Below, in pieces: positions 6,099-62,043 of a DNA stretch of 62,043 bases. Origin of the DNA: a virus (lineage: Duplodnaviria; Caudoviricetes); the IMG/VR virus record IMGVR_UViG_3300003886_000003, positions 1 to 62,043 of that record. One strand, 5' to 3'. The notes under the pieces are model-generated. The model ran no database searches. It was given only the letters and a program-made list of their open reading frames with translations, and had not been told where the DNA came from. The position numbers and the translations under genes are program-made. The stretch's first letter is position 1. Every line of letters begins with the position of its first letter.

Positions 6099-6285
6099 CA
6101 GCGCCTAGCCAGTGGCGATAGCGCCCTATTGTGTTGCCATTGGTATCACGGATAGGGAAGTCAGACTCCTGTTCAACCACACGATCAGCGATATCTCGCA
6201 GGACGTTGTAAATGCCCCCTTGTATGCCCCCGTCAGAATCTTCAAAGGCGGCGTTGTCAGTGTTGAATGTTATCACTACTTGCAT
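6091..6285 (-). CDS. Hypothetical early protein
   Basis: GGAG RBS; MQVVITFNTDNAAFED...IRDTNGNTIG, a common small phage protein type. Confidence 0.7.
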   Translation of the reverse strand: MQVVITFNTDNAAFEDSDGGIQGGIYNVLRDIADRVVEQESDFPIRDTNGNTIGRYRHWLGADE

Positions 6286-6298
6286 TGTGTTTTCTCCT

Positions 6299-6607
6299 TC
6301 ACCATTGGTAGGTTCTAAGTTCAGGTACTTCCACGCCATCCCGGTCAAGCACAAGGTAGGAGCAGCCGTATTTTACAGCCAGGTCTATCAGTGAGATAAA
6401 TCCGTTACTAAACCCCGCCCCATTGCAGGCAGGAGCAACAATGTCAGGTGTCATTTCTGCCGTCAGGAAGATAATGAAGCCGTATTCAAAATTGACGACA
6501 CGGCACAGATCAAAACTTTGTTCTGTTGTGTCTTTAAGATAGTCGTTATCGACTCGCGTGATATGGCAGGTATTAATGACCAGCGCTTTTTCTATTGGGA
6601 GTTTCAT
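6299..6607 (-). CDS. DUF5983-like protein
   Basis: NTCHIT, EYGFII, GCSYLVLDRDG...L..YQW pattern. Confidence 0.55.
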   Translation of the reverse strand: MKLPIEKALVINTCHITRVDNDYLKDTTEQSFDLCRVVNFEYGFIIFLTAEMTPDIVAPACNGAGFSNGFISLIDLAVKYGCSYLVLDRDGVEVPELRTYQW

Positions 6608-6609
6608 GT

Positions 6610-6789
6610 CTAGCAGTTCCCTGTGTTGTCGTAGATAGGGTTTTCAGAATCGCTATTCAGGATGATACGGCATATTGGCCCCGCCGGGTCTTCATGCAAG
6701 CAGGCAGGAGTCATTATATTAATTTCCAATATGCCATCCGTATCCGATTTGTGTACAGTAATTTTAAAGTCTTTTGATTTGATTGTCAT
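6610..6789 (-). CDS. Hypothetical early protein
   Basis: CAACACA leader plus GAGG RBS before ATG 6789. Confidence 0.6.
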   Translation of the reverse strand: MTIKSKDFKITVHKSDTDGILEINIMTPACLHEDPAGPICRIILNSDSENPIYDNTGNC

Positions 6790-6833
6790 GGTGTGTGCCT
6801 CTTTGTGTTGCTGACGAATTGAGTGTGCCAGGG

Positions 6834-7508
6834 TTAGAAACAGTCTCTGAGTGTCCATGGTTCATCAATATAGCCTTGTGCCTCATCGTGCAGTTTCTGA
6901 ATTTCTATATTTACTTTAAGGATGGTGGCACTTAGCGCGTCGCTTTTTTTAGTTGCCTCTTCCCGCAATTCAGCGGCGCGAGTTTTTGCGTCCTCTTTCA
7001 TGGTGTATTCACATTCTTTTTCGGCGTCGAATTGTGCCCGGCCATCGGCCTGTACTGCCGCTAGGTGCAAGCCTTCATCAATGCCAGTGGTGTCTGTGCC
7101 ACCTTTTTCTCCCAGCACATAATCAAAGTCAATAAGTGCAGCGCTTTCCGTGCCTGACCACGTGTCACAGTATCCGATAACGTATACCGGGCATCCCTTG
7201 CGTGCTGGTAGTTGCCACACAGCACCCCGGTAGGTGTCAGCGTTACCGGAATCATTGCGGTTATACCAGCCCTTGTGTCCAAGCCGTATAATTTCATCGG
7301 CGTACTTGACAAAGCGCAGCCCCGATTTTTCAGTGCTTTCAATCCATCGCTTTTTAGTGTCTTCAATTTGTGGATTGTAGACACTGGCAGGTTTATGGGA
7401 GGTAACCGCCTTGTGTTTTTGACGAATCAAAGATAGTACAGCGCAAGCGGTCAAGTGTGGAAGATGGGCGCGTGTTGCTTTAAAGCGGGTATATTTGCTT
7501 GTGGTCAT
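6834..7508 (-). CDS. Hypothetical early protein
   Basis: 224-aa ORF with CACAACACAGGA leader. Confidence 0.75.
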   Translation of the reverse strand: MTTSKYTRFKATRAHLPHLTACAVLSLIRQKHKAVTSHKPASVYNPQIEDTKKRWIESTEKSGLRFVKYADEIIRLGHKGWYNRNDSGNADTYRGAVWQLPARKGCPVYVIGYCDTWSGTESAALIDFDYVLGEKGGTDTTGIDEGLHLAAVQADGRAQFDAEKECEYTMKEDAKTRAAELREEATKKSDALSATILKVNIEIQKLHDEAQGYIDEPWTLRDCF

Positions 7509-7532
7509 GGTGTGCGTTTCCTGTGTTGTGTA

Positions 7533-7622
7533 AATCCAGACAGCGCCCCCAATGTTTACAGCCAGTCACAACACAAGCCATCGGGGGTACTGTTTCGGGC
7601 TGTGTGCCCTCATCAGTGGATT
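7533..7622 (-). ncRNA. Type I hammerhead ribozyme HH1
   Basis: AAUCCA-CUGAUGA-GGGC(ACACA)GCCC-GAAA-CAGUACCCCCGAUG...CAUUGGGGGCGCUG-UC^-UGGAUU; full core and three stems; predicted cut between 7539 and 7538. Confidence 0.9.
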
Positions 7623-7692
7623 AATCCTGTAGCGCGAATGCCAGTATTATAAAGGCAAATACTAGCAGTGAGTATGTTTCTACCCCTGACAT
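7621..7692 (-). CDS. 23-aa hydrophobic peptide
   Basis: GGGGGG RBS; MSGVETYSLLVFAFIILAFALQD; stop overlaps HH1 stem I. Confidence 0.45.
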   Translation of the reverse strand: MSGVETYSLLVFAFIILAFALQD

Positions 7693-7708
7693 TTGATTAC
7701 CCCCCGTG

Positions 7709-7867
7709 TTAGTTGTTCCAGTCTTTGCAGCATCGTGTTGATAACCATAATTCGCCGTCAAGGTATGCCTGCCTGTATTCATTTAACATTTTAGCCGCTT
7801 CCTGGCGGGTTCTATATTCGTCAATTGTTTCCGTGACACCCTGGTATTTATAATTTATGTATGTCAT
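7709..7867 (-). CDS. 52-aa early protein (not in ORF track)
   Basis: CACAACACA leader; MTYINYKYQGVTETIDEY...CCKDWNN. Confidence 0.7.
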   Translation of the reverse strand: MTYINYKYQGVTETIDEYRTRQEAAKMLNEYRQAYLDGELWLSTRCCKDWNN

Positions 7868-7896
7868 GTTTCAAACCCCGCTTGTGTTGTGGTTTA

Positions 7897-7956
7897 AGTC
7901 TATACAATGCCCATCAGTGGGGCATTGTTTCACGCTTACGCGATCATCAGTAGACT
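7897..7956 (-). ncRNA. Type I hammerhead ribozyme HH2
   Basis: AGUCUA-CUGAUGA-UCGC(GUAA)GCGU-GAAA-CAAUGCCC(CACUGAU)GGGCAUUG-UA^-UAGACU; cut between 7903 and 7902; first stem II pair is U-U. Confidence 0.82.
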
Positions 7957-8389
7957 AAGCGGCTTTTATTTCTCTTAGTGTTTTGGGTTCAAAATACAGG
8001 TCAATTTCTATGCTGTGTTCTATCAGTTCATCAATTGAGATATACCCCAGCTCCCCACCATGGCCAAGATTAGCAAACCCGAAAGCCTGGAACTGTTTGT
8101 CTTTGTCTAATGGGTGATCGTCGTCTGATCCTGCATCTTTTTCCAGTATGTACCAGTCCATACCACCATTAAAATAATGCAGGTGTACAATGGCAGCGTC
8201 GCCCTTGCCATCTTGTTGGCAGGTTTTCGGCATGTCGGCAATGAGCGCGGCCAGCTTTACCACCTTGTCAAAAAAATATTGTTTTTCTTCGCCGTGAAAG
8301 GTGGAAGTAATTGCAGCCAGTTGGCGCTTGCTGATAAAAGGTTTAAGCGTGTTGATTGCCTGGTGTGCGTCTTGTATTGTGGATTCCAT
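7955..8389 (-). CDS. DUF2958-like early protein
   Basis: HYF..GMDWYILE.D...AFGFANLG..GELGYISIDEL...IEIDLYFEPKTL pattern. Confidence 0.65.
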   Translation of the reverse strand: MESTIQDAHQAINTLKPFISKRQLAAITSTFHGEEKQYFFDKVVKLAALIADMPKTCQQDGKGDAAIVHLHYFNGGMDWYILEKDAGSDDDHPLDKDKQFQAFGFANLGHGGELGYISIDELIEHSIEIDLYFEPKTLREIKAA

Positions 8390-8414
8390 GTTAATACCTC
8401 TGTGTTGTGGTTTA

Positions 8415-8474
8415 AGTCTATACAATGCCCATCAGTGGGGCATTGTTTCACGCTTACGCGATCATCAGTAGACT
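8415..8474 (-). ncRNA. Type I hammerhead ribozyme HH3 (identical to HH2)
   Basis: Same sequence as HH2; cut between 8421 and 8420. Confidence 0.82.
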
Positions 8475-8763
8475 AAGCGGCTTTTTTGAGGTCGGTCGGT
8501 TCCTGGGTATGCCATTCGCGGGTTTTTGTGTGCATCCATTTGCGTGCGATGATTTGCAGACCGTTGCCAGTGTCAACGCCGAACGTGAAGACAGTGTAAG
8601 CGCCATCAGTTCGGCGTGTGGTTGTGTGTTCCACTAATACCTCTGAGTTTTTAGCGCTTGTGCCGACTCTCACAGTAACATCGGCTGTATCTTTCGCACC
8701 ATAAGATTTTCCGGTTTTATATATGCAGGAATTGATAACGTTCCATATTGGGTATGATTGCAT
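8473..8763 (-). CDS. Hypothetical early protein
   Basis: CACAACACAACACAAGGA leader; MQSYPIWNVINSCIYK. Confidence 0.7.
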   Translation of the reverse strand: MQSYPIWNVINSCIYKTGKSYGAKDTADVTVRVGTSAKNSEVLVEHTTTRRTDGAYTVFTFGVDTGNGLQIIARKWMHTKTREWHTQEPTDLKKAA

Positions 8764-8797
8764 GATTGTTTTTCCTTGTGTTGTGTTGTGGATGGTA

Positions 8798-8826
8798 ATT
8801 TTATCAGATTTATTTGATAACTGCAA
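8798..8826 (-). promoter_or_regulatory. Sigma70-type promoter with internal inverted repeat
   Basis: TTGCAG-17 nt-TAAAAT; TTATCA-N8-TGATAA (8801-8820) fills the spacer. Confidence 0.6.
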
Positions 8827-8841
8827 TGGATTGTTGACGGA

Positions 8842-9180
8842 CTAGCTTAATTCTATATCAAGTGTGTTGCAAATATCATAAGCCAGGAATTGCGCCGCGC
8901 TATCGTCGTCGCGTTCCAGTAGTCGCCGAACTAACACGGTCAGCGATTCCATCGATATGATACAGTTTAATCGGTTTACCCATAGCGAATCATCATGGGT
9001 ATAACTGTCACCTCTTTCTGGAACGTAACAGGCTTCCAGGTGCCCATCAATTCCTTGATTGACAGCCATCATTATTGTGTCGATGTCCTCTCCCACCATT
9101 GTCATGGTATAGGCTTCACTTTGTGATTCCGTAATTAACTTTTTTAATTCGTTTGACCAATCGCCGCTATAGTATTTCAT
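8842..9180 (-). CDS. Hypothetical acidic early protein
   Basis: CACAACACAGGAG leader. Confidence 0.7.
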   Translation of the reverse strand: MKYYSGDWSNELKKLITESQSEAYTMTMVGEDIDTIMMAVNQGIDGHLEACYVPERGDSYTHDDSLWVNRLNCIISMESLTVLVRRLLERDDDSAAQFLAYDICNTLDIELS

Positions 9181-9238
9181 GGTTAATACTCCTGTGTTGT
9201 GTGTTGTGTTTTAAAAAATTGCAGCCAGTAAGGTAGAA

Positions 9239-9835
9239 CTACCCCCACTGGTCGGCCATCGCCAACGCTATGCCCGAATATGTCTCGCTTCGTAGCTTCC
9301 ATCGGTCAGCCGATGGGCCTAGCTTGTTCTGTCCGCTATCTGTCTGATTCTCCCAACGCGGTAAGCCATTGACTACTCGCGGGGGTATTTCTTCAGTTGG
9401 TTTTAAGTTTGGCAAACCCTTCAACCATAGCCCGGTTCGCTTGCTTGCATTGTGTCCAAACTGATAGGGCTGTATATACTGGTCGGCTTTTCTGATTCGC
9501 GTACCGATACAGCCTACCGGATTTTCAATGCAGACTTTTGGAATATGGCTGGAAAGACGAATTATATCATGGACAAATTGCAGCGCTTTTTCTGTTTTTT
9601 CTTTTCGTCCTGGGGTGCGACCATTCCAGTGTAACCCGCTACTACATAGGTATGTACAGGGTGGATGGATGATCAGCATATCCCATTCATGACGAATCAT
9701 TACTGATAGAACATCATCAACAATATGATATTTTGAATTGTTAAAAAGCAAATCGCATGACCAAGATTTATGGCCAGTCAGTCTAAAGGCATCGCGGACA
9801 ATTCCGCTATGTTCACAACCTATTAATATTTTCAC
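9239..9835 (-). CDS. Short phage DNA cytosine methyltransferase-like protein
   Basis: LIGCEHSG (motif I-like), HPPCT (motif IV PC), IENP (motif VI), KRTGLW. Confidence 0.75.
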   Translation of the reverse strand: MKILIGCEHSGIVRDAFRLTGHKSWSCDLLFNNSKYHIVDDVLSVMIRHEWDMLIIHPPCTYLCSSGLHWNGRTPGRKEKTEKALQFVHDIIRLSSHIPKVCIENPVGCIGTRIRKADQYIQPYQFGHNASKRTGLWLKGLPNLKPTEEIPPRVVNGLPRWENQTDSGQNKLGPSADRWKLRSETYSGIALAMADQWG

Positions 9836-9921
9836 TGGTTAAATTGTCCCCATTAAATAAGCAAAGCCTAGCGAGTATGTCGCAAAAATAATAAACATTA
9901 CTATTTCATCAGCTTTCATTT

Positions 9922-10179
9922 TTATATCTCGCTATTAACAATTTCAGTTATCAGGCTGTCCAGCATGTAGCAATATTCAATACCCGCCGTTGCTTCAGTT
10001 TGGCGACGGATATCACTTGCCTGTCTGATTGCGCGTTCAGTCACATTAAATTTACCATTGATGGGGTATAGGTGGCTTTCATCCTGTTCACGGTAAAGCC
10101 TGTTAATGCAGGCAATGTGTGCGTTGCCGTTAAGGTGATCGGCTTTGTCTGCTATTTGTAATGGTGTCAATTGTTCCAT
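9922..10179 (-). CDS. Hypothetical early protein
   Basis: CACAACACAGGAG leader before ATG 10179. Confidence 0.65.
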   Translation of the reverse strand: MEQLTPLQIADKADHLNGNAHIACINRLYREQDESHLYPINGKFNVTERAIRQASDIRRQTEATAGIEYCYMLDSLITEIVNSEI

Positions 10180-10249
10180 GTTTAGCGCTCCTGTGTTGTG
10201 CTGTGTTTTAATACAATAGCCCCCTTGCACAAGGCTATCATTTAAAACT

Positions 10250-10636
10250 CTAGCGGCCCATGTGAGATATAATGGCTTGTGCTGAGCATTTATAGCCATG
10301 TTTGCGCGTATCTTCCAGCATAATGCAGTTTTTAGGCTTTGCGGTATCAAGACCAATAATGGTAAATACCTTGTTATTCATTTTAACAATTTTTCCCAGC
10401 CATTCAGGGTTCAATTGATAGCTTGCTGCATACAGTTTGAAGTCGTCGCCATGTCTCCCCAGCCCGGTTTTTCCCTTGGTCTGAAATTCTATGGTCATTT
10501 TATAATGACTGTCACCATAGCTCCCAGACTTACGCGTGATAGTAATACCGTGCTCAAGCGCCAACTGTGTTAATAACTCCATTGTATCATCGCCGATTCT
10601 GTTTGCTGTCCGCTTGTCAAAGTTTTCAATTGTCAT
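10250..10636 (-). CDS. Hypothetical early protein
   Basis: CACAACACAGGAG leader. Confidence 0.7.
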   Translation of the reverse strand: MTIENFDKRTANRIGDDTMELLTQLALEHGITITRKSGSYGDSHYKMTIEFQTKGKTGLGRHGDDFKLYAASYQLNPEWLGKIVKMNNKVFTIIGLDTAKPKNCIMLEDTRKHGYKCSAQAIISHMGR

Positions 10637-10663
10637 GGTTAATACTCCTGTGTTGTGTTGTGT

Positions 10664-11023
10664 TTAGAAATACCCCTGATCAGGGTCATGCAATGATTGA
10701 AATAACTCATCATCATCGTATTTTGCATCTTTATTAAATGATAGCTTTGGTAAAATTTCCATGTCCCCCGACCAAAATAGTTTTATACCCCAGTCGCGTT
10801 TTTCTTCCTCTGTCATATTGGTTGTATCTTCGCTGTACGGGGAGTTTTGCTCTGCTATCCAGACATAAATATCTACCCCGCCGAATATGCCGTAGCCATC
10901 ATAGGCAGGTTCACATATCGGCGCACCTTTCGGCTGTATAAGATATACCGGCTTGCTTTCCCCGGTATGCTTGTTTCGTATTGGTTCCTGTGTATCGGCT
11001 GTAGTAAATGAAAAGAATCCCAT
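10664..11023 (-). CDS. Hypothetical early protein
   Basis: AAGGAG RBS; MGFFSF...YDGYGIFGGVDIY...DPDQGYF. Confidence 0.7.
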   Translation of the reverse strand: MGFFSFTTADTQEPIRNKHTGESKPVYLIQPKGAPICEPAYDGYGIFGGVDIYVWIAEQNSPYSEDTTNMTEEEKRDWGIKLFWSGDMEILPKLSFNKDAKYDDDELFQSLHDPDQGYF

Positions 11024-11036
11024 GGTGATTGCTCCT

Positions 11037-11303
11037 TTAGAATTGTAATGATGTTTCGCTAGTGCGTAAGTATTCAGGAACAAGGCTTTTTATGTCTGAA
11101 AACATAGCATAATAGTCGATTCTTCCAATTGTGCCGTCGTCAAATTCGTACGCGTACAACCAATTATGATCGCTGATAAATTTATGGATTATTGCGGTAG
11201 AATATGCCCCCGCCATAAATAGATTGTTATTTGCTTTTTGCATGGCCGTGTTTGCTACTCCTTCAGCTATGCTTTCAATTTCTATTTGATAGTCTGTAGT
11301 CAT
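11037..11303 (-). CDS. Hypothetical early protein
   Basis: CAACACAGGGG leader. Confidence 0.6.
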   Translation of the reverse strand: MTTDYQIEIESIAEGVANTAMQKANNNLFMAGAYSTAIIHKFISDHNWLYAYEFDDGTIGRIDYYAMFSDIKSLVPEYLRTSETSLQF

Positions 11304-11404
11304 GACGTACCCCTGTGTTGTAACGTTTTGAATACAATAACAATAGCCTTGATTAGCACGTAAGCGGCTAAGCCTGTTATAAGGGGATATATAGAATAGT
11401 GCAT
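11300..11404 (-). CDS. 34-aa single-TM peptide, first gene of the early operon
   Basis: CACAACACAGGA leader; MHYSIYPLITGLAAYVLIKAIVIVFK; ATGA overlap with next gene. Confidence 0.5.
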   Translation of the reverse strand: MHYSIYPLITGLAAYVLIKAIVIVFKTLQHRGTS

Positions 11405-11437
11405 TGATATACTTCCTGTGTTGTGCTGTGAGTTTTG

Positions 11438-11467
11438 AGAGTAACACAGGCAGTATACACTTTTCAA
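11438..11467 (-). promoter_or_regulatory. Putative early promoter
   Basis: TTGAAA-18 nt-TACTCT with extended TG; overlapped by AAGTGT repeats. Confidence 0.45.
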
Positions 11468-11886
11468 CACTTTTGTGCATTATCTTACACTTATTTACCT
11501 ATGAAAAAGTCGACACTTTTTTGCCCCCTTCCATATTTTCTGTATGATTTATGTGATGAATGTTAATATTCTATAGGTAATACAGCAAGTTACGCGTGCG
11601 TGTATGCGTACACCTTATAATAACACGCTCCCCGATTGCTGGTTATACCCTCCCCCCGGTACAAATTCCCCCCGGATATCGTGTTAGTGCGCGGCTGTAA
11701 ATTTTGGAAGCACTACCAGGGCGCGGGCTGGCTGGAAATTCCTGGTCATTCGAGATGAAAAGAGTCTCATACAATCGTGTCAGGCTGGGAACAGATATCG
11801 GGGGGAGCAAGGGCCGAGCCTATCTGATCCACCCTATCTCTCGGAGCTACAGAATTCCCGATCCCTGAAGGGAAGTCATCATATAT

Positions 11887-11950
11887 ATCTGATAAAAAAT
11901 TTTTATGCTATCCACAGCAAATCTGACAAAAATTTTTTATTATCCACAGC
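11887..11950 (+). repeat. Tandem imperfect ~31-bp repeats ending in DnaA-box-like 9-mers
   Basis: ATCTGA(T/C)AAAAA..TTTTAT..TATCCACAGC twice; TTATCCACA at 11940-11948. Confidence 0.6.
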
Positions 11951-12018
11951 CACTGAAATTTGACTTGTACACAGTAATTTGCGACGCTCAAAACATCAAA
12001 CAACCAGGAGATGGTGTT

Positions 12019-47548: not shown

Positions 47549-47794
47549 TTAACCTTCGTCCCAGGAATCTTGAATGCTGACTTGTTCAATACCTTCTTGG
47601 CGATGCTTGGCAAAGTATGACTGCACCACCTCGACATCGGCCACGTATTTGTGGGCGAGCTTATAGACCGGCACAGGGAAGACACCCAGTGCAATGTCTT
47701 TCCGAGCTGCACGCATGTTCTTAAATTTGAATAGCGCGGTAAGCTCTTTGAGTGTGAAGTATGGCAGAGAAACGTCAAAATTTTGACTATTCAT
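47549..47794 (-). CDS. Xis/AlpA-like winged-helix DNA-binding protein
   Basis: FTLKELTALF...RKDIALGVFPVPVYKL. Confidence 0.55.
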   Translation of the reverse strand: MNSQNFDVSLPYFTLKELTALFKFKNMRAARKDIALGVFPVPVYKLAHKYVADVEVVQSYFAKHRQEGIEQVSIQDSWDEG

Positions 47795-47810
47795 AAAATT
47801 CCCATTGTAA

Positions 47811-47840
47811 AAAAGTGTAATAAAGTGTAAAAAAGTGTAA
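47811..47840 (+). repeat. Three tandem 10-bp repeats (WAAAGTGTAA), operator-like
   Basis: AAAAGTGTAA TAAAGTGTAA AAAAGTGTAA just upstream of the Xis-like gene. Confidence 0.8.
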
Positions 47841-47858
47841 CAGGTATTTTGCCCCTTT

Positions 47859-54899: not shown

Positions 54900-55018
54900 T
54901 CTATAAACATCCTAATACTGGTGGGCGTCCAGATATGTATTCAAACCCCCGCTGGTCGAAGGTACGGAGTGGGAAAAACACAACAAAAACCCACTTTTGA
55001 ATTTTAACACCCATAAAC

Positions 55019-55222
55019 TTAATCATCTCCCTTATCAAAATCAGCTTCAGGAAATTCATGCCACCCATGACATAGCTCAGTGTCCTCAACTTTACGGTTT
55101 CCTATGCGGTCAAACTGCACAAGTGATATTCCTTTGATGTTATGGTGTGGCCGTATTAGCGCACTGCATCCTTGAAATACAGATATTGTGCCAGTGTACT
55201 CCGCGTGCCACATGTCAGTCAT
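55019..55222 (-). CDS. Hypothetical protein
   Basis: Overlaps the DUF2800 stop. Confidence 0.55.
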   Translation of the reverse strand: MTDMWHAEYTGTISVFQGCSALIRPHHNIKGISLVQFDRIGNRKVEDTELCHGWHEFPEADFDKGDD

Positions 55223-56444
55223 CTAAAAAACTCGTATCGTCATCATCCAGGTCTTCCATTTCATCAGTGTTCGCTTGATACACTTCACGCGGGTCGCTGC
55301 CTAGCACTAAGACTGCTTTGCCAGCAGGCTTTATGACTTCAGCCAGCAGGTCTTCATTCTTCTTGCCCATTACTTTTTCAGCAGCCGGTATGCCAATGAG
55401 TTTTTGAGTAAACATGTCGGCCACTTTTTTGAATTTCTTTGAAGCCCGCATCATTTTTTCTGCAGCCCCGTCATTACGCCATGTCCTGTTAGACCGGCCT
55501 GAAACCATCTTCAGTGGTAGCTCATCCGGGCCTATGACTTCCTGGCCCCCTTGCACCTTGGTCATACAGCTTTCTTCAATGTCGTTACACCATGAGCGTA
55601 TGGTGCCTAAGTTAGCGAATGAGTCACCCAGTTCTGCAAGGCTCATGGTGTTGACATCAATAACCTCATCCATCTCGTCACTCATCTGATTGTGGACCCA
55701 CTGTGTACGTGCGTTGCAATCCAGCTTGCCGGGGCAAAACCGGCACCAATCCCCAGGCTTAAACTCAGCACCTTCACCTGTAATAGCAATTATGGATTGT
55801 GGCTTGGCAGTTGTCTCAGCCCACTCAATAATTTCACTGGCTGGTATAGTCCACTCATCAATGTGATCAAGGCGGGGTTGGCAGATATTAAGCTGAAAAG
55901 TATCAATCTCGTATAAGTGCCCCAGTTCCTGAATCACACCCAACCCGTACAATCTCAACTGAGTATTGTCAACTGCGAACTCCTTCACACCCTTGCCCAT
56001 TTTAAGATCAGTAATGGTACAGATACCTTCATCTGTGTTGATACCAATACGAATGTCATCAGACGTGCCAAAGCCCAGTTCCACCCAAAAATCATAGTGA
56101 ACGCGCAGCTCAAAGAATGCGTCGCCGTCAAAGCTATTCACATAGTCGAGAAAAACCTGAATGGCATCAGCGAATGCAGCATCACAAGTGAAGGTATATC
56201 CATCGATGGTTTCGGTGTGCCCAATGTACTTAACAGCCGGTACGTTTTCAGCGCGGCAATACTCTGATATGTTGTGCCCGAAGGTTCCCTCAGCAGCAAA
56301 TATACTCGTGGTGTCCGGCATGTCTTTGGTGTACAGCACTGACGCTGTACAGTTGATCCAACGCTTACCGGCTGACGGCCCTAACGGTGAGTGCTCAAGA
56401 TCATCAGTGACACGTTTTACAGCATCTTGCACTTTACTCGTCAT
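55215..56444 (-). CDS. DUF2800 family Cas4-like PD-(D/E)xK exonuclease
   Basis: HS.LGPS...RW..C, EGT..H, FGTSD, DLKMGKG, QL.LY, QPR, CRFC....C. Confidence 0.9.
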   Translation of the reverse strand: MTSKVQDAVKRVTDDLEHSPLGPSAGKRWINCTASVLYTKDMPDTTSIFAAEGTFGHNISEYCRAENVPAVKYIGHTETIDGYTFTCDAAFADAIQVFLDYVNSFDGDAFFELRVHYDFWVELGFGTSDDIRIGINTDEGICTITDLKMGKGVKEFAVDNTQLRLYGLGVIQELGHLYEIDTFQLNICQPRLDHIDEWTIPASEIIEWAETTAKPQSIIAITGEGAEFKPGDWCRFCPGKLDCNARTQWVHNQMSDEMDEVIDVNTMSLAELGDSFANLGTIRSWCNDIEESCMTKVQGGQEVIGPDELPLKMVSGRSNRTWRNDGAAEKMMRASKKFKKVADMFTQKLIGIPAAEKVMGKKNEDLLAEVIKPAGKAVLVLGSDPREVYQANTDEMEDLDDDDTSFLDD

Positions 56445-56784
56445 GGCCAGCACCCCCGCTATTAACAGCTAAGTGACTACGTTTAGCGCCCACAGATGCA
56501 CACATTGAATTGACATATATAATCATGCCGGGGTCACGCTCATTAACCATCTTGAAAAATAGATCGATTGTATTATCACAACACTGTGAGTACGCGACCC
56601 ATACCTGTTTACCACGCATGTTCATGTCGTCGAGATTGACGCACAGTTCTCGCAGTGCGTCATCCCCCCGATCAAACATTGTTTGAAGCAGTGACATTGT
56701 GCCTGGGTGCCCTTCAGAAACCTCACGCATAACTGCCTGAATGTCACCGTCAAACTGTATTTTATGCCGACGGATTTTAGCCAT
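56434..56784 (-). CDS. Hypothetical protein
   Basis: SEGHPG...LDDMNMRG..VW..Y..C pattern. Confidence 0.65.
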   Translation of the reverse strand: MAKIRRHKIQFDGDIQAVMREVSEGHPGTMSLLQTMFDRGDDALRELCVNLDDMNMRGKQVWVAYSQCCDNTIDLFFKMVNERDPGMIIYVNSMCASVGAKRSHLAVNSGGAGHDE

Positions 56785-57140
56785 CAGTCCGGCATCTTGT
56801 CAGTGCAAGCGTCAATAACTTGTTGGTACTTCACTTCATCCAGGTTGCCTAGTGTTGAAGCGCCGTGTGCCTTGAGTATTGACTTGGCTTGTGCAGGCGT
56901 AGTGGCTTGCTGCAGTGACTGTAATGCTTCACGCACAGCCTGCTTGCTCGGTGCATCCTCAGCGGGTGTCTCTTTCGGCTTGCCAACTACTTTTTCATTT
57001 GGCTTACTCTTTTTAGAAGATGTTGCCTTTCCTGTTTTACCAACATCACTTGTTGCGGCAACTGCACCGCTACTCGCTCCGTTTTCCAGTGCTGTTGCGA
57101 TACGTTCCAGCGCTTCGACGCCCCGTTCCATTAATCCCAT
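56784..57140 (-). CDS. Hypothetical replication-module protein
   Basis: GGAG RBS; LERIA.ALE, Lys/Pro linker, IL..HGA..L..L...KY (usual neighbour of DUF2800). Confidence 0.7.
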   Translation of the reverse strand: MGLMERGVEALERIATALENGASSGAVAATSDVGKTGKATSSKKSKPNEKVVGKPKETPAEDAPSKQAVREALQSLQQATTPAQAKSILKAHGASTLGNLDEVKYQQVIDACTDKMPD

Positions 57141-57159
57141 TGTACTTTCTCCATTGTTG

Positions 57160-57390
57160 TTAACACGCACATCTTTCTGGTATCGACATGAACCAGCAAA
57201 CCCAATAATTCTCATGATACTCAACCGGGATGTCAGTATACGGCAGACTTATCCCTCTTGGCATCACAAAAATATCAAAACCGCCTAAACTGTCCGTTTT
57301 TCTTTCTGATTTCCTCACCATTACCCTCATGCCTGACTGCTTATGCTTGCGCTTGATGGCATTCAACTGGCACAGGTTGCAATCAGTCAT
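57160..57390 (-). CDS. Hypothetical Cys-containing protein
   Basis: CNLC...CAC. Confidence 0.6.
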   Translation of the reverse strand: MTDCNLCQLNAIKRKHKQSGMRVMVRKSERKTDSLGGFDIFVMPRGISLPYTDIPVEYHENYWVCWFMSIPERCAC

Positions 57391-57640
57391 TGCTTTCCCC
57401 TGGAAATGGCGGCGATATCATATTACCTCCCCGCCCGTGTTTCCATTTTTTAGGGATCGGGCCATCGGGCCAGTCGCCATTGATACAGGATTCAAACACG
57501 AAGCGCATACCCTGAGTGGTCATATTCACATCGTACCGGTAAGCAAATCCATGCTCGGCAAGCAGGCCACCGATCTGATCCGCGTAGTCCTTGGTGACAT
57601 CATCAATCTGATCCTGTAGCGTGTAGCCGTGCTTCTTCAT
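57383..57640 (-). CDS. Hypothetical protein
   Basis: Overlapping start/stop. Confidence 0.6.
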   Translation of the reverse strand: MKKHGYTLQDQIDDVTKDYADQIGGLLAEHGFAYRYDVNMTTQGMRFVFESCINGDWPDGPIPKKWKHGRGGNMISPPFPGESND

Positions 57641-58314
57641 GGCTCATCATTAAAGTAGACTGGATTGCCAGCACCATCAGTGCCTACACATCTTCCTTTT
57701 GGAACGTCTTCAACCAGGATGGGAGCCATCGCCGGTTTCACCAATTTTATCGCCTCGAAAATGACAATCTCGCAGCCATCGCTCGCTACACATTTGCGTG
57801 CAGCTTTTTCAGCCTCTTCATAGCTGTCATAAAATTTATTCATGTCTCTGGACCGTTTTACTCCATGCACTGTGTCAGCCCCATGAATTTTGAATTTGTG
57901 TAATTGCCTCATATCCTTTTTCTCCTGTGATTTTAATAATACAAAGCTAATCGAGCTATTGTTGGATGATTCAATGTGCTTTGCAATTTCCAGGGTGACA
58001 ACTTTTGTGTCTTTGCTGTAGACTCGCCGGTAAAAATCAGCCGCACCAAGCCCCAAGCACTTGACCCAAGAAGTGCCCGCTGTATAGTCATGAGGGGAGC
58101 GAGTATCAGCCATGAACCACTTCCAGTCAGGGCGATCAACTCGTGAGATAATACAATGCTTATTGGATACTCGCCGGTAGCCCTGCTCCATAAGCTCTCT
58201 TGCTTTCTCCCGCATCTTAGCATTACGCGCAAGTTCAATACTCTCTTGGATACTCATCTCACAAAACTTACTGTATGGAAAATTGCCGGGTGCATCCCAA
58301 AGCTGACCGGTCAT
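57637..58314 (-). CDS. Hypothetical protein (possible two-gene fusion)
   Basis: Internal AGGA RBS plus ATG at MRQLHK. Confidence 0.6.
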   Translation of the reverse strand: MTGQLWDAPGNFPYSKFCEMSIQESIELARNAKMREKARELMEQGYRRVSNKHCIISRVDRPDWKWFMADTRSPHDYTAGTSWVKCLGLGAADFYRRVYSKDTKVVTLEIAKHIESSNNSSISFVLLKSQEKKDMRQLHKFKIHGADTVHGVKRSRDMNKFYDSYEEAEKAARKCVASDGCEIVIFEAIKLVKPAMAPILVEDVPKGRCVGTDGAGNPVYFNDEP

Positions 58315-58658
58315 GGCCCTGTTCTTTCCCTGACTACTTTAGCCAGTTCCTCGCTCGCATTAGCACCTGCTTCAGTGACAAACTTACGCAGCTCACTAAC
58401 AATTATCATCTGTTGCTCGGATACTTCTTTTTCTGACCTGCCAGATTCCTTGGCTATTTTTCGGAGAATATCGCGGGGAAGCCTTGCATGGATATCAATG
58501 TATGTGGGGATATACATTTCCAGCATCAGTAGTACGAGTAATGATGGGCAATCAATATCCTCACACCGCTGCTCAAGCCACACTACTGCACTTTGTGCCA
58601 GCTCCATTGCGGTGTGAAAGTCATCTGTACCAACAACTTGCTGTCTGTATTTTTTCAT
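58311..58658 (-). CDS. Hypothetical protein
   Basis: Overlapping start/stop. Confidence 0.6.
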   Translation of the reverse strand: MKKYRQQVVGTDDFHTAMELAQSAVVWLEQRCEDIDCPSLLVLLMLEMYIPTYIDIHARLPRDILRKIAKESGRSEKEVSEQQMIIVSELRKFVTEAGANASEELAKVVRERTGP

Positions 58659-58897
58659 TATTCACCGTCCCTTATATAGTCATCAACTTCCTGCTTGTCA
58701 GTGCCGTACAGAATATAGTATGGATCGACTGGCGTGTTTTCATCAGGGACAGGCTGACCGTAATTGCCATCATATTCACACTCATAAGCAGTGCAATAGA
58801 ACTCAAGAAATTCTTCAGCGTTGGACCGCTCATCAGACTCAGCGGCATATAGTGGGAAGGAAAGTAGCAGTGTTATTAATAGTGCTAGTTTTAGCAT
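58658..58897 (-). CDS. Small secreted acidic protein
   Basis: GAGGA RBS; signal peptide MLKLALLITLLLSFPLYA. Confidence 0.6.
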   Translation of the reverse strand: MLKLALLITLLLSFPLYAAESDERSNAEEFLEFYCTAYECEYDGNYGQPVPDENTPVDPYYILYGTDKQEVDDYIRDGE

Positions 58898-58919
58898 CAG
58901 CGTCATCCTCGTTAGCATT

Positions 58920-58947
58920 AAAAGAATGGCCCCTTTCGAGGCCATCC
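58920..58947 (-). terminator. Intrinsic terminator of the candidate sRNA
   Basis: GGAUGGCCUC-GAAA-GGGGCCAUUC-UUUU. Confidence 0.7.
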
Positions 58948-59038
58948 TGACCAAAGCACAAACCCTCACAGGGAGTTTTTGCACTGTACCGGGACACAAC
59001 CCCCGGCATTTACACAACACATGGAAACACCATGAGCC
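58920..59038 (-). ncRNA. Candidate trans-acting antisense sRNA (~120 nt)
   Basis: Lies between promoter and terminator; several hairpins; seed UGUGUUGUGUAAAU complementary to early-gene leaders. Confidence 0.65.
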
Positions 59039-59041
59039 GTG

Positions 59042-59071
59042 ATCATATTATAAAAATACTTTTCATGTCAA
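59042..59071 (-). promoter_or_regulatory. Sigma70-type promoter
   Basis: TTGACA (59071-59066), 18-nt spacer, TATGAT (59047-59042). Confidence 0.7.
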
Positions 59072-59128
59072 ATAAACTTTGATAGTATGCCCTCTTGATA
59101 TATGTGATAAATAACTTGAGGAACCAAT

Positions 59129-59446
59129 GTGGACCTATTCAAGCCATTAACCAAGAAGCAAGAGCGCACTTATGATAGAACAATCAATATTATACGTGAA
59201 GAAGTTGGCTCATATCAAAAAATCGCCACGACTGCTTTTTCTATAACAGGATTGCACATATCCGGTCAGACAGTGCATGTATGGTTCATTGAGCGAAGGA
59301 TTCCTGAGAAGTATGCAGTAATTTTTTGCAGCATGGTGCCGGGCAAGGTGGACTTTATGGATTTGTGCCCCTGGCTCTTGCCGGTGTTCAATGCTTGGCA
59401 ACAGGAAAAGTTAAATAGTGGGGCCACAAACGGCTGGGATAAGTAG
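59129..59446 (+). CDS. Cro/CI-like HTH regulator
   Basis: ISGQTVHVW...RIP...DLCP pattern; divergent from the replication arm. Confidence 0.6.
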   Translation: MDLFKPLTKKQERTYDRTINIIREEVGSYQKIATTAFSITGLHISGQTVHVWFIERRIPEKYAVIFCSMVPGKVDFMDLCPWLLPVFNAWQQEKLNSGATNGWDK

Positions 59447-59458
59447 GGACAGTGTACC

Positions 59459-59674
59459 GTGAATATTATAGTTACGCCCATCGGGGAACGATACCTGGAA
59501 ATAACGATATGCGAGTTGCGCTATCTGTTCCTTCGGGCTTATGATGGTGAGCTTCCAGAATCAATAACCACTGAAGACGCTGTGCTGTCTGTACAGATGT
59601 TCTTCGGTATTGAAATGTGTGAAAGAATGCTAACAGAAAAAGGAGAAGTGCAATGCAAGGTTGGATGTTCATAA
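59459..59674 (+). CDS. Hypothetical protein
   Basis: ORF track. Confidence 0.45.
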   Translation: MNIIVTPIGERYLEITICELRYLFLRAYDGELPESITTEDAVLSVQMFFGIEMCERMLTEKGEVQCKVGCS

Positions 59675-60060
59675 CAATTAATCCCAATGGTTCGCTCGGC
59701 GTCAGTGGTGCTGTCATACGTGAGATTACTACCGAGAAGTTTTTGTGCCGGTTCTTTCTTGGCCCAACTTCACACTCCCGTGTGGTTACAATTGCTGAAC
59801 TGGAATCATATCATCTGTTCCAGACTCAAGATGAAATGGATAGCTACGTTGATACCTTGCGTCAACGCGCTGAAGCAGAACCACAGCAACCGGGTGGTGC
59901 TGTTAATCCAGAAACCCCTGACGGCGATCCACCCCCCGCTGTTACTCCCGGCCCACCTGCGAATAAGCGCCCAAGCAGAAAGCAAAAAGGCAAGGGTAAA
60001 ACTGTGCATCCAAAAGGCAAGCCAACCAAGCCAGCCGGTAATGACTTTCTGGACGACTAG
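59653..60060 (+). CDS. Hypothetical protein with FLDD tail
   Basis: AGGAG RBS. Confidence 0.7.
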   Translation: MQGWMFITINPNGSLGVSGAVIREITTEKFLCRFFLGPTSHSRVVTIAELESYHLFQTQDEMDSYVDTLRQRAEAEPQQPGGAVNPETPDGDPPPAVTPGPPANKRPSRKQKGKGKTVHPKGKPTKPAGNDFLDD

Positions 60061-60062
60061 CC

Positions 60063-60359
60063 ATGAATGACGAGTGGCTAAGTCTAAATTCAGATGATGG
60101 TAATACTATGGCAATTCTCCGTTGCTCAACCATTACCGGTGTGCGCTTTCAGCCTTTAATAACCGATCAGGGCGAGCAGGCTCAAGCCAGGCACCCCATT
60201 ACCGGTGAGGTTCTTAAAATATGGAGCATCACTGTTGAGTTGGGGTCCGGCGGGCACCAGCTCACCTACTCTGATAAACAGAAGGGTATCAAAGAGCATA
60301 AGCGTATTTGTAGTGTAGTGCAGGGTAACAATCCAGAAACCAATAAAAGGATAAACTAA
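60063..60359 (+). CDS. Hypothetical protein
   Basis: Operon spacing. Confidence 0.65.
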   Translation: MNDEWLSLNSDDGNTMAILRCSTITGVRFQPLITDQGEQAQARHPITGEVLKIWSITVELGSGGHQLTYSDKQKGIKEHKRICSVVQGNNPETNKRIN

Positions 60360-60679
60360 TGAACCAAGGGCAAGGGGTATCACCTGAAAAGGATATAAGT
60401 ACAGAAGCGCTATCGGCAGAATTGAACGCCAAAACGGTAATTATCGATAAGTGCGCTCGGCGTGACCAGTTCTTTTGCGCTGCGCTGACCGGTCTTTTGG
60501 CTAGTGCAACTAACTGTGATCGCCTTAAAGCTGTTGACCGCTACGCTGCAAATGGACTGGTGGCAGACGCTGCAATACTGGCTGACGCTGCGATGGAGTC
60601 CGGGCAGGAATATTATAATGATTTGCACCGTGAGTTAAAAAATAAAATTGCTGACAACGCTACACTAGCAAAAACCTGA
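60359..60679 (+). CDS. Hypothetical protein
   Basis: RDQF..AALTGLLA...A..LADA.M motif common in small phage proteins. Confidence 0.7.
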   Translation: MNQGQGVSPEKDISTEALSAELNAKTVIIDKCARRDQFFCAALTGLLASATNCDRLKAVDRYAANGLVADAAILADAAMESGQEYYNDLHRELKNKIADNATLAKT

Positions 60680-60700
60680 GCACACAATTGGGAGAGCGCG

Positions 60701-61165
60701 ATGACCGAAGTACAAACCCCCGGCAAAGGGGCACCAGTTCCTGGGCCTACTGTTGAGCAGTACATCACATTATCACAAGCGAATGACAATAAACTTGAAA
60801 AATTAAAATTCGTTCAGTCAAACCTGCGCATTATTGTCGCAGCAATTGATCACTCTATGTCTGTATTGTCGGAGCTGCCTGAGCCGGGCATAGCGACACT
60901 TATTGGTGAGATAAAAAAGGCTGTACTCGATGTCTCTGATAGCACGACTGACCTTGAGCTGTGTGAGCGAGACAGGCACAAAATACACGATCCCTATCTA
61001 CGGAGCTTGGCTGATAACCTGACATCGATGCGTGGCTATCGGGACGTTCTGCTTGAACGACTGGCAATGGTTAATAATACCGTTCAATCAGGTATGTCTA
61101 AAGAGGATTACATCGCTCGCACCATTGTTGATATTGTTGACGGCACAAAAGACAGAAAGGAATAG
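60701..61165 (+). CDS. Hypothetical coiled-coil protein
   Basis: GGAG RBS; precedes the primase. Confidence 0.65.
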   Translation: MTEVQTPGKGAPVPGPTVEQYITLSQANDNKLEKLKFVQSNLRIIVAAIDHSMSVLSELPEPGIATLIGEIKKAVLDVSDSTTDLELCERDRHKIHDPYLRSLADNLTSMRGYRDVLLERLAMVNNTVQSGMSKEDYIARTIVDIVDGTKDRKE

Positions 61166-61167
61166 AC

Positions 61168-62043
61168 ATGCGGTCACTCGGTATTTCCACCGGGAAGTCG
61201 CGCCTGTCACCCTACATAAAATCCGGCAAGGTTTCCTGGCGAAAGCTATTAGCTAAACTCACTGAGTTTACAGTAGCGGATATAAAGTATGCGGATTACA
61301 TCGCACTGCCGCGTGATGAGCAGGCTGATATCAAAGATGTCGGGTACTTCATCGGCGGCAAATTCAATAGCAACACCCGCAAGAAAGACAAACTGGCTTA
61401 CCGATCAGTCATCACGCTCGACATCGATCATCTTGATGCATGGGATTTGACTGACGGTGAAGAGCAAAGCAGCATAGGTGACAGCTATGACAGCTATGAA
61501 TACGTGGTGCATTCAACTGCCAAACATAGTGCGGCCAGTCCGCGTCTGCGCCTGGTCTTTCCACTGTCACGCAACGTTACCCCCGATGAGTATGAACCTT
61601 TAGCTCGCATAATTGCCAACGAGCTTGGTATGGATGTCTTCGACGATACCACCTTTCAGCCTGCACGTATTATGTTCTGGCCCTGTATCACATCCGACGG
61701 TAACAGGTACATGGAACACAACTTAAATGACTTTATCGATCCCGATGAGTGGTTGGGTAAATACAAAGACTGGCAGGACTTCGCTGCTTGGCCGCACAGC
61801 TCACGAGTGGAAGCAATGACCCATGCGGGCGCTGTCAGTGTGGAAGACCCGCTCACCAAGCCCGGTATCATTGGCGCGTTCTGTAGAACCTATGATATCC
61901 ACGCTGCCATCGTCCACTTTGAACTGCCCTATGAAACCACCGAACACGATAACCGCTACCGCCCGGTAGACGCCACTGGGCCATCGGGCGCTGTGGTCTA
62001 TGATGAGGGGCTGTTCATGTACTCCCATCACGAGTCAGACCCG
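61168..62043 (+). CDS. Primase-helicase, N-terminal part (continues at 1..2095; about 959 aa in total)
   Basis: ATG at 61168 after AGGA; MRSLGISTGKSR...KDVGYFIGG...ITLDIDH...HST...PRLRLVFPL resembles phage primase-polymerase N-termini; in frame with ORF 41..2095 across the overlap. Confidence 0.85.
   Translation, partial: MRSLGISTGKSRLSPYIKSGKVSWRKLLAKLTEFTVADIKYADYIALPRDEQADIKDVGYFIGGKFNSNTRKKDKLAYRSVITLDIDHLDAWDLTDGEEQSSIGDSYDSYEYVVHSTAKHSAASPRLRLVFPLSRNVTPDEYEPLARIIANELGMDVFDDTTFQPARIMFWPCITSDGNRYMEHNLNDFIDPDEWLGKYKDWQDFAAWPHSSRVEAMTHAGAVSVEDPLTKPGIIGAFCRTYDIHAAIVHFELPYETTEHDNRYRPVDATGPSGAVVYDEGLFMYSHHESDP
61953..62043. repeat. Terminal direct repeat, copy 2
   Basis: Identical to 1-91. 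Confidence 0.95.

What the first reader, a model, noticed from the sequence alone, without database searches (positions are those of the whole stretch)
58920..59071. GcvB-like phage sRNA antisense to early translation-initiation regions
Seen: the predicted RNA reads UCAUGGUG-UUUCC-A-UGUGUUGUGUAAAU near its 5' end. It can pair in 8+5+14 bp blocks with the start codon, Shine-Dalgarno and enhancer of gene 6834..7508 (7505-7535), and through the UGUGUUG core with the other ten leaders. A second GUUGUGU sits in the loop of the next hairpin (CCGGG/CCCGG). It has a TTGACA promoter and a GAAA-capped terminator with only four U, so read-through could feed the replication operon. Inference: a multi-target repressor; its seed might also hit host C/A-rich GcvB targets.
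Basis: partly seen in the sequence, partly recalled or inferred. Interest (0 to 1): 0.85.

Follow-up and report, generated by a model that had tools for sequence, protein, structure and literature searches.

The report
Phage leader RNA mirroring translation start sites
An orphan phage genome carries, behind its best host-type promoter, a short structured RNA whose first 30 bases are the mirror image of the ribosome-landing site of one phage gene and partly of ten others, so it may silence them, but nothing yet shows that it does.

Summary
The sequence features are real. A minus-strand TTGACA-18-TATGAT promoter (59071-59042) precedes a ~114-nt RNA of four hairpins. It ends in an 11-bp GAAA-capped hairpin with a short U run, 13 nt before the Shine-Dalgarno of the first leftward gene.

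Its 5' end pairs 8+5+14 bp with the enhancer, Shine-Dalgarno and AUG of gene 6834-7508. A 10-nt G/U core also matches ten further CAACACA-Shine-Dalgarno-ATG leaders at 6.6-11.4 kb.

The match beats all 250 composition-matched shuffles (BLAST E 0.006 for the RNA as query). In an all-against-all search, though, it is only one of about ten equally good inverted matches. Non-CA start sites also mix with the ten weaker targets.

It is not a GcvB family member, although it shares two 8-mers with the E. coli GcvB G/U region. The terminator is sub-standard, so the RNA may mostly be a 5' UTR.

The same DNA read on the + strand looks like a twelfth start-site copy. The phage has no close relatives and no RNA data, so strand, ends and function stay untested.

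Best reading, about 45%: a leader-derived antisense RNA against gene 6834-7508, perhaps against the whole leader family.

The parts
59042..59071 (-). sigma-70-type promoter TTGACA, 18 nt, TATGAT; inferred start of transcription about 59033-59037
   Evidence: 11 of 12 matches. It is one of only two 11/12 sites in 2000-62043. The start site is inferred from spacing only.
59007..59034 (-). 5'-terminal anti-start-site stretch UCAUGGUG-UUUCC-A-UGUGUUGUGUAAAU
   Evidence: 26 of 31 aligned columns identical to the inverted 7505-7535, E 0.006.
59020..59034 (-). SL1 hairpin CAUGG-UGUUU-CCAUG, holding the anti-AUG and anti-Shine-Dalgarno bases
   Evidence: -5.2 kcal/mol, 0 of 200 shuffles fold as well.
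59009..59019 (-). unpaired seed UGUUGUGUAAA between SL1 and SL2
   Evidence: minimum-energy and centroid fold.
58987..59008 (-). SL2, 8-bp stem with loop GUUGUG (second G/U motif)
   Evidence: -13.1 kcal/mol, 0 of 200 shuffles.
58955..58985 (-). SL3 hairpin
   Evidence: -10.8 kcal/mol, 7 of 200 shuffles fold as well.
58916..58948 (-). 11-bp GAAA-capped hairpin plus tail UUUAAUG: a weak intrinsic terminator or a 5' UTR hairpin
   Evidence: -18.5 kcal/mol, 0 of 200 shuffles. Not listed by the terminator scan.
58658..58910 (-). Shine-Dalgarno GAGGA (58910-58906) and first leftward gene, ATG 58897, 79 aa with a hydrophobic N-terminus
   Evidence: No family match.
7505..7535 (-). start site of gene 6834-7508: AUUUACACAACACAGGAAACGCACACCAUGA, the best predicted target
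   Evidence: duplex -41.7 kcal/mol, or -16.0 after opening costs.
11402..11423 (-). CA leader of a 34-codon ORF (ATG 11404)
11301..11320 (-). CA leader, ATG 11303
10634..10660 (-). CA leader with tandem motif, ATG 10636
10177..10198 (-). CA leader, ATG 10179
9178..9206 (-). CA leader with tandem motif, ATG 9180
8761..8788 (-). CA leader with tandem motif, ATG 8763; second-best BLAST match of the RNA (19/22, E 0.11)
8387..8407 (-). CA leader, ATG 8389
7865..7889 (-). CA leader, ATG 7867
6787..6810 (-). CA leader, ATG 6789
6605..6628 (-). CA leader, ATG 6607
59007..59082 (+). the same DNA read on the + strand: a start-site-like ACACAACACAUGGAAACACC-ATG (59032) with a 16-codon ORF ending at TGA 59080-59082. 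This is the rival reading.

Best explanation
Host RNA polymerase starts at the 59071-59042 promoter and makes a structured leader RNA.

Part of the transcripts would stop at the weak hairpin terminator at 58948-58916, giving an RNA of about 110 nt. The rest would continue as the 5' UTR of the leftward replication and recombination operon.

The first 30 nt are an inverted copy of the translation start site of gene 6834-7508. In either form the RNA can pair in trans with that mRNA. Pairing would begin at the unpaired UGUUGUGUAAA. It would then open SL1 and spread over the C/A enhancer, the Shine-Dalgarno and the AUG, 27 bp in all. That would block ribosome binding.

The ten other CAACACA leaders could be hit more weakly, through the 9-14-nt G/U seed plus short contacts at the Shine-Dalgarno and AUG.

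Shown: the sequence, the fold prediction and the complementarity statistics. Inferred: transcription, the 5' and 3' ends, trans pairing and repression.
For: Promoter:
- It matches 11 of 12 consensus positions. It is one of two such sites in 2000-62043, in the only region where promoter-like sites exceed shuffles: 13 against 4.5 +/- 1.9, and 21 against 10.6 +/- 2.9.
- The complementarity begins within about 3 nt of the inferred start of transcription.

Fold:
- The RNA folds at -47.6 kcal/mol, z -3.99, with 0 of 200 shuffles as good. The seed is unpaired.

Complementarity:
- As a BLAST query, the RNA's best non-self hit in the window is the start site at 7505-7535 (26/31, E 0.006). The next is the start site of gene 8763 (19/22, E 0.11).
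- The 34-nt 5' end against 103 start sites gives -41.7 kcal/mol for gene 7508. The best of 250 shuffles is -36.4, and the mean best is -27.3 +/- 2.4.
- The 11 CA leaders average -26.2 against -17.8 for the other 92 (Mann-Whitney p 4.9e-6). 0 of 250 shuffles reach that gap. 8 of the 11 are in the top 14.
- An 18-nt seed scan of 31,010 windows puts 7516-7539 first after the self match, and 8 CA leaders within the top 34 merged windows.
- The + strand copy is the nearest relative of the 7508 start site: score 16, against 12 for its next-nearest family member.

Literature:
- ACA-rich elements upstream of the Shine-Dalgarno enhance translation and are silenced by GcvB pairing (PMC3879156, abstract).
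- A promoter-proximal terminated phage transcript can be a trans-acting sRNA (StxS; PMC7547250, abstract and passages).
Against: - No expression data and no relative exist, so there is no covariation.
- In an all-against-all inverted search the pair only ties for ranks 3-11, with E 4.4.
- After opening costs, the predicted total for gene 7508 (-16.0) is no better than for 9180 (-19.5). Six of the 11 leaders lie between -5.1 and -7.4, and one is +3.5.
- Non-CA start sites intermix with the weaker targets, for example 14461 at -36.1 and 61823 at -28.9.
- The hairpin tail has too few U for the terminator scan, so a discrete sRNA is uncertain.
- The + strand RNA is equally unusual against its own shuffles, z -4.17.
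- An inverted duplication of a start-site cassette explains the match without any function.
- My gene list is a crude heuristic with some wrong starts, and I replaced one start by hand.
Confidence: 0.45

Rival explanations
1. It is only a 5' UTR or attenuator. The RNA is the leader of the leftward operon. Its hairpins set mRNA stability or partial termination. The inverted start-site copy is a scar of recombination between conserved start-site cassettes and has no trans role.
For: - The hairpin sits 13 nt before the Shine-Dalgarno of the first gene, and its U tract is sub-standard.
- The start-site family looks cassette-like and recombinogenic: there is an 85-nt perfect repeat that includes a CA leader.
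- About ten equally good inverted matches occur in this genome.
Against: - The match lies exactly at the inferred 5' end, with its core unpaired.
- E is 0.006 for the RNA as query, and the hit falls on a start site, a small fraction of the genome.
- A second G/U motif sits in the next loop.
Confidence: 0.3
2. The functional strand is +. Positions 59007-59034 are a twelfth CA-type start site driving the 16-codon ORF 59032-59082, or the vestige of a lost gene start.
For: - The + strand reads ACACAACACA-U-GGAAACACC-AUG, with the same design as the 11 leaders and nearest to 7508.
- The + strand fold has z -4.17.
Against: - No + promoter better than 9 of 12 lies upstream. The nearest are at 58652-58680 and 59022-51, and the latter would start downstream of the ATG.
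- SL1 would sequester both GGAA and the AUG on the + strand.
- The ORF has only 16 codons and overlaps the minus-strand promoter.
- All other family members lie in one block on the other strand.
Confidence: 0.1
3. It is a processive-antitermination leader of the nut or put type, or a Q-type promoter-terminator unit. The RNA hairpins, or a phage protein bound to them, would modify RNA polymerase so that it reads through the hairpin terminator and later ones.
For: - The architecture is promoter, then structured RNA, then terminator, then operon.
- SL2 and SL3 are separated by one unpaired base. I recall this as a feature of HK022 put RNA; it was not checked in any call.
- The same architecture gives the lambda 6S RNA and StxS (PMC7547250).
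Against: - No antiterminator family was found among the neighbouring ORFs, though most have no match at all.
- No Rfam family matched.
- This reading does not explain the start-site complementarity.
Confidence: 0.08
4. It is a DNA-level operator. The shared 28-31 bp would be a binding site for a phage regulator at both loci.
For: A double-stranded site is blind to strand. The 59-kb copy lies at +1 to +30 of the promoter.
Against: - No promoter-like site lies near 7535.
- In all 11 leaders the motif sits at a fixed place next to the Shine-Dalgarno and in one orientation, which points to an RNA-level role.
- The dyad CATGG/CCATG is absent from the 7.5-kb copy.
Confidence: 0.03

Closest known systems
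GcvB (Rfam RF00022), the enterobacterial Hfq-dependent sRNA
   Same: It has an unpaired G/U-rich seed aimed at C/A-rich enhancer elements just upstream of the Shine-Dalgarno. The phage RNA shares the 8-mers UGUGUUGU and UGUUGUGU with E. coli K-12 GcvB. The GcvB G/U window also prefers the 11 phage leaders: -20.9 against -14.7 kcal/mol, p 7e-6 (PMC3879156 abstract).
   Different: There is no covariance-model match at E<=10. The phage RNA is about 114 nt against 206 nt. Its seed is at the 5' end, and pairing extends over the Shine-Dalgarno and AUG. It is a phage leader, not the gcvA-linked locus. Hfq binding is untested and the U tail is short.
StxS and lambda 6S RNA (short PR'-tR' transcripts)
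   Same: A short RNA made between a strong promoter and a terminator that sits directly upstream of an operon. StxS acts in trans on a ribosome-binding site (PMC7547250, abstract and passages).
   Different: Those lie before late genes and depend on Q antitermination. Here no antiterminator is known, the operon is for replication, the terminator is weak, and the targets would be phage genes about 51 kb away (about 10.5 kb across the circular junction).
Phage antisense RNAs against a phage start site: P22 sar, lambda OOP, P1 c4
   Same: An RNA pairs with the translation start region of a phage gene to block its expression (review PMC12197685, section 2 and table entry).
   Different: sar and OOP are cis-encoded with perfect complementarity. 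c4 is cut from the leader of the operon that it controls; this detail is recalled, not read. Here the pairing is trans, imperfect (27 bp with two bulges) and possibly multi-target.
T4 RegA and RegB (recalled, no call)
   Same: Post-transcriptional shut-off of a set of phage genes through recognition of their start sites.
   Different: Those are proteins, a repressor and an endoribonuclease. Here the agent would be an RNA.
AgvB, a prophage anti-sRNA
   Same: It involves the GcvB seed and C/A-rich target logic in a phage setting (PMC12197685 passage).
   Different: AgvB mimics the C/A-rich target and sponges GcvB. Here the RNA carries the G/U side, and the C/A side sits on 11 phage mRNAs.

Membership tests
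GcvB (RF00022) | Match to the family covariance model (sequence plus structure) | tested here: not met
   No hit in 58800-59150 or in the whole window at E<=10. The control genomes gave E. coli over the cut-off.
GcvB (RF00022) | Unpaired G/U-rich region complementary to C/A-rich elements at ribosome-binding sites | tested here: met
   The fold leaves UGUUGUGUAAA unpaired. Two 8-mers are shared with E. coli GcvB. There is a preference for the CA leaders.
GcvB (RF00022) | Hfq dependence and a long 3' U tail | not testable with these tools
   The tail is UUUAAUG after the stem. No binding data exist.
Terminator-bounded trans-acting sRNA (generic) | Own promoter | tested here: met
   An 11-of-12 consensus match. 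This is a consensus match only.
Terminator-bounded trans-acting sRNA (generic) | Efficient intrinsic terminator giving a discrete 3' end | tested here: inconclusive
   The hairpin is -18.5 kcal/mol, but it fails the scan's 5-T-in-8 rule.
Terminator-bounded trans-acting sRNA (generic) | Conserved seed and covarying targets in relatives | not testable with these tools
   No relative holds the region.
PR'-tR' type unit (lambda 6S, StxS) | Q-type antiterminator acting at the promoter | tested here: inconclusive
   No family hit for antiterminators among the 20 neighbouring and leader-block ORFs scanned, but most have no hit at all.
Antisense RNA against a phage start site (sar, OOP, c4 kind) | Extended complementarity covering the Shine-Dalgarno and start codon of a phage gene | tested here: met
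   27 bp over -27 to +4 of gene 6834-7508.
Antisense RNA against a phage start site (sar, OOP, c4 kind) | Demonstrated repression of the target | not testable with these tools

The most novel reading that the evidence does not exclude
An immediate-early, leader-derived phage RNA arose by inverted duplication of a translation start-site cassette. It acts as an RNA counterpart of T4 RegA. Through one G/U seed it silences a whole regulon of 11 phage genes that share a C/A enhancer-Shine-Dalgarno module. It uses the same seed logic as the host's GcvB, so host GcvB and the phage RNA would compete for or cooperate on the same phage leaders.
Probability: 0.2. Interest if true: 0.8.

Novelty: new variant of a known kind. 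Interest (0 to 1): 0.5.

Why it matters
Phage RNAs that regulate phage genes are mostly cis-antisense with a single target. A trans-acting leader RNA that silences a family of phage genes through a shared enhancer-plus-Shine-Dalgarno module would be a new way of timing phage gene expression.

It would also be a clear case of a regulatory RNA born by inverted duplication of its target. And it would link phage gene control to the host GcvB and C/A-enhancer system.

The 11 near-identical leaders are useful in their own right as a natural set of C/A translational enhancers.

If instead it is only a 5' UTR carrying a recombination scar, the finding is ordinary.

Tried and rejected
RNA families. Rfam gave nothing at gathering score over the whole window. 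At E<=10 in 58800-59150 there were only chance-level hits, the best a CRISPR repeat model on the + strand of the hairpin at E 0.075. RF00022 gave nothing in the window.

Relatives.
- megablast and blastn against the phage collection: none.
- tblastn of the exonuclease: all 1612 records below 60% identity.
- Viral contigs searched with three proteins: one 30% hit.
- The first rightward ORF is alone among 5.8 billion proteins.
- Metagenome contigs searched with the primase N-terminus: 6 loci at 37-41% identity. The four examined (L002, L008, L009, L013) lack the motifs and the gene layout.
- Genome contigs, by polymerase and by a 33-nt exact stretch: none.
- A promoter-seed-seed pattern in viral contigs gave 5 loci, all microsatellite-like or unrelated.
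- A CA-leader pattern gave 12 loci with single occurrences only.

Expression. For sequencing runs, none was listed and no RNA holder was listed.

The target protein. It has five unnamed homologues at 37-49% identity. The AlphaFold model has pLDDT 64.2. Foldseek against the PDB gave nothing at E<=0.001. The Atlas hits were all under 0.9. Pfam and PHROGs gave only families of unknown function. Its function stays unknown.

A phage RNA polymerase promoter as the reason for the CA motif. I rejected this for lack of any polymerase-like hit among the ORFs I scanned, including 6 of the 7 over 600 aa. The motif's fixed position next to the Shine-Dalgarno also argues against it.

A cis hairpin between the upstream CUUGUGUUGUG (7577-7567) and the 7508 start site. 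It is not in the minimum-energy fold, whose z-score is only -0.60.

An N-terminally extended 120-aa reading from GTG 59020. I rejected it because there is no Shine-Dalgarno and the signal-like segment would become internal.

Supplements of the cited papers were not seen. They could hold seed or target lists that bear on the GcvB comparison.

Full report
What the window is. It is a complete 62,043-bp virus record with a 91-bp terminal repeat.
- Replication genes flank the site. Leftward of it lie a DUF2800 exonuclease, a Gp2.5-like single-strand-binding protein, a PAPS-reductase-like protein, a DNA polymerase and a helicase. Rightward lies a primase-helicase.
- Head and tail genes lie at 12-47 kb on the + strand.
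- A block of small, mostly unknown genes lies at 2.1-11.4 kb on the minus strand.
- The phage is an orphan. It has no DNA match in the phage collection. All protein relatives are under 60% identity or at 30-41%. The ORF next to the site is unique among 5.8 billion proteins.

- On the minus strand, TTGACA (59071-59066), 18 nt and TATGAT match 11 of 12 consensus positions.
- The RNA from about 59036 folds into four hairpins at -47.6 kcal/mol, z -3.99, with 0 of 200 shuffles as good.
- SL1 is CAUGG/CCAUG. Then come 11 unpaired nt, UGUUGUGUAAA. SL2 has GUUGUG in its loop. SL3 follows. Last is an 11-bp GAAA-capped hairpin of -18.5 kcal/mol followed by UUUAAUG.
- That tail is too poor in U for the terminator scan, which does not list the hairpin.
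- Thirteen nt further on are GAGGA and the ATG at 58897 of a 79-aa protein with a hydrophobic N-terminus. The element is therefore at the least the 5' leader of the leftward operon.

The leaders. CAACACA occurs 28 times, against 14.4 +/- 3.8 in shuffles; 0 of 100 shuffles reach 28. Sixteen of the 28 lie on the minus strand between 6130 and 11423. Fourteen of those sit in 11 start sites of the form CAACACA-Shine-Dalgarno-ATG. No other start site among the 103 in my crude list has the motif.

The pairing. RNA nt 2-29 pair with 7535-7505 in blocks of 8+5+14 bp, with one bulged A and a 4-nt target bulge. This covers the enhancer, the Shine-Dalgarno and the AUG of gene 6834-7508.

Is it more than chance? 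The evidence points both ways.
For:
- With the 114-nt RNA as query, the 7505-7535 hit has E 0.006. The next hit is another CA leader (19/22, E 0.11).
- The 34-nt 5' end gives -41.7 kcal/mol with the 7508 start site. The best of 250 dinucleotide shuffles is -36.4.
- CA leaders average -26.2 against -17.8 for the other 92 start sites (p 4.9e-6). 0 of 250 shuffles reach that gap.
- A seed-only scan of 31,010 windows ranks 7516-7539 first after the self match, and 8 of the 11 leaders fall within the top 34 merged windows.
Against:
- All-against-all, the pair only ties for ranks 3-11 with E 4.4. The site was chosen because of the match.
- Non-CA start sites reach -36.1 and -28.9.
- After opening costs, the totals are -16.0 for 7508, -19.5 for 9180 and about -15 for two more. 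Six lie between -5.1 and -7.4, and one is +3.5.
So one strong target is credible. Ten further targets are plausible but weak.

Context.
- Promoter-like sites exceed shuffles only around the site: 13 against 4.5 +/- 1.9 in 57500-60500, and 21 against 10.6 +/- 2.9 in 55200-62043. Elsewhere they are at or within about one standard deviation of shuffle level.
- The two best sites, both 11 of 12, point leftward at 59218 and 59071. The leader is therefore probably among the first RNAs made.
- The CA-leader block has only 9-of-12 sites upstream. Calling its genes 'early' is unsupported, and the direction of any timing switch is open.

Which strand? Read on the + strand, 59007-59034 looks like a twelfth start site, with an ATG at 59032 and a 16-codon ORF. 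It is the closest relative of the 7508 start site, with score 16 against 12 for the next. Complementarity and inverted homology are therefore the same observation.
- In favour of the minus-strand RNA: the strong promoter, the position of the match at the 5' end, the unpaired core, and the lower absolute energy (-47.6 against -33.9 kcal/mol). That energy gap is expected anyway for a G/U-rich strand, and the z-scores are alike at -3.99 and -4.17.
- Against a + strand role: there is no upstream + promoter better than 9 of 12, and a hairpin would cover GGAA and the AUG.

GcvB.
- The RNA is not a family member.
- It works on the same principle as the GcvB G/U region. It shares two 8-mers with E. 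coli K-12 GcvB, and that region also prefers the 11 phage leaders: -20.9 against -14.7, p 7e-6, with 9 of 11 in the top 14.
- ACA-rich elements are translational enhancers that GcvB silences (PMC3879156, abstract).
- The host is unknown, so host targets cannot be judged.

Mechanism and rivals.
- My best reading, at 0.45, is a leader-derived antisense RNA that blocks the start site of gene 6834-7508 and perhaps weakly the other ten. It would act either as a terminated RNA of about 110 nt or as the 5' UTR of the operon mRNA.
- The rivals are: a plain UTR or attenuator carrying a recombination scar (0.30); a + strand start site (0.10); an antitermination leader (0.08); and a DNA operator (0.03).
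- The target protein has no known function.

Comparison and novelty.
- The closest known cases are StxS and lambda 6S (PMC7547250), the phage antisense RNAs sar, OOP and c4 (PMC12197685), GcvB, and, by function only and from recall, T4 RegA and RegB.
- Two literature searches and the review (outline, section 2 and GcvB/AgvB passages read) showed no phage RNA that carries a GcvB-type seed against a family of phage leaders. Those searches cover open-access text only.
- If functional, it is a new variant of a known kind. Without RNA data or relatives the case rests on sequence alone.

Noticed in passing
window 59189-59218 (-): A second 11-of-12 promoter-like site (TTGATA, 18 nt, TATAAT) points leftward from inside the first rightward ORF (59129-59446). 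Its RNA would be antisense to that ORF's start site and would run into the leader.
   Followed up: no
window 59079-59109 (+): Three direct (T/G)TGATA repeats at 59079, 59095 and 59104 lie between the divergent promoters. TTGATA is also the -35 hexamer of the 59218 site. They are possible operator half-sites.
   Followed up: no
window 7883-7967 and 8401-8485: An 85-nt perfect direct repeat holds a 9-bp hairpin (ACAATGCCC/GGGCATTGT) and a CA leader, upstream of the genes starting at 7867 and 8389. It suggests cassette duplication or gene conversion.
   Followed up: partly
window 11449-11519 and 47777-47853: Arrays of AAAGTGT/ACACTTT repeats lie in two regulatory gaps. Together they form the best inverted match in the whole genome (38/50). 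They are possibly sites for a phage regulator or a non-sigma-70 promoter element.
   Followed up: no
window 7567-7577 (-): The long leader of gene 6834-7508 itself holds CUUGUGUUGUG about 40 nt upstream of the start site. It could pair with CACAACACAGG, but it is not in the minimum-energy fold.
   Followed up: partly
window 11443-11450 (-) and 11415-11422 (-): CCUGUGUU upstream of the 11404 leader is the exact complement of AACACAGG in that leader. This is a possible self-masking hairpin of the first CA leader.
   Followed up: no
window 54969-54994 (-): A hairpin GUGGG/CCCAC with a U/G loop containing GUUGUGU lies in an intergenic gap of the leftward operon. It is a third G/U motif displayed in a loop. 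Overall, though, GTTGTGT in sense RNA is at chance level: 4 found against about 3.8 expected.
   Followed up: partly
window 59010-59033 (-): If transcription starts at A 59033, the RNA begins with AUG and a 7-codon ORF (AUG GUG UUU CCA UGU GUU GUG UAA) that spans the seed. This is a possible leaderless mini-ORF.
   Followed up: no
window 11300-11404 (-): The first CA leader drives a 34-codon ORF that encodes a hydrophobic peptide.
   Followed up: no
window 6000-12000: The CA-leader block has lower G+C (0.42-0.47) than most of the genome (about 0.49-0.55).
   Followed up: no
L003 10731-10810 (+): An unrelated viral contig has TTGACA, a hairpin and then a long G/U-rich run (UGUGUUGUGUUGU...) resembling the GcvB G/U region, with CA-rich sequence downstream.
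   Followed up: no
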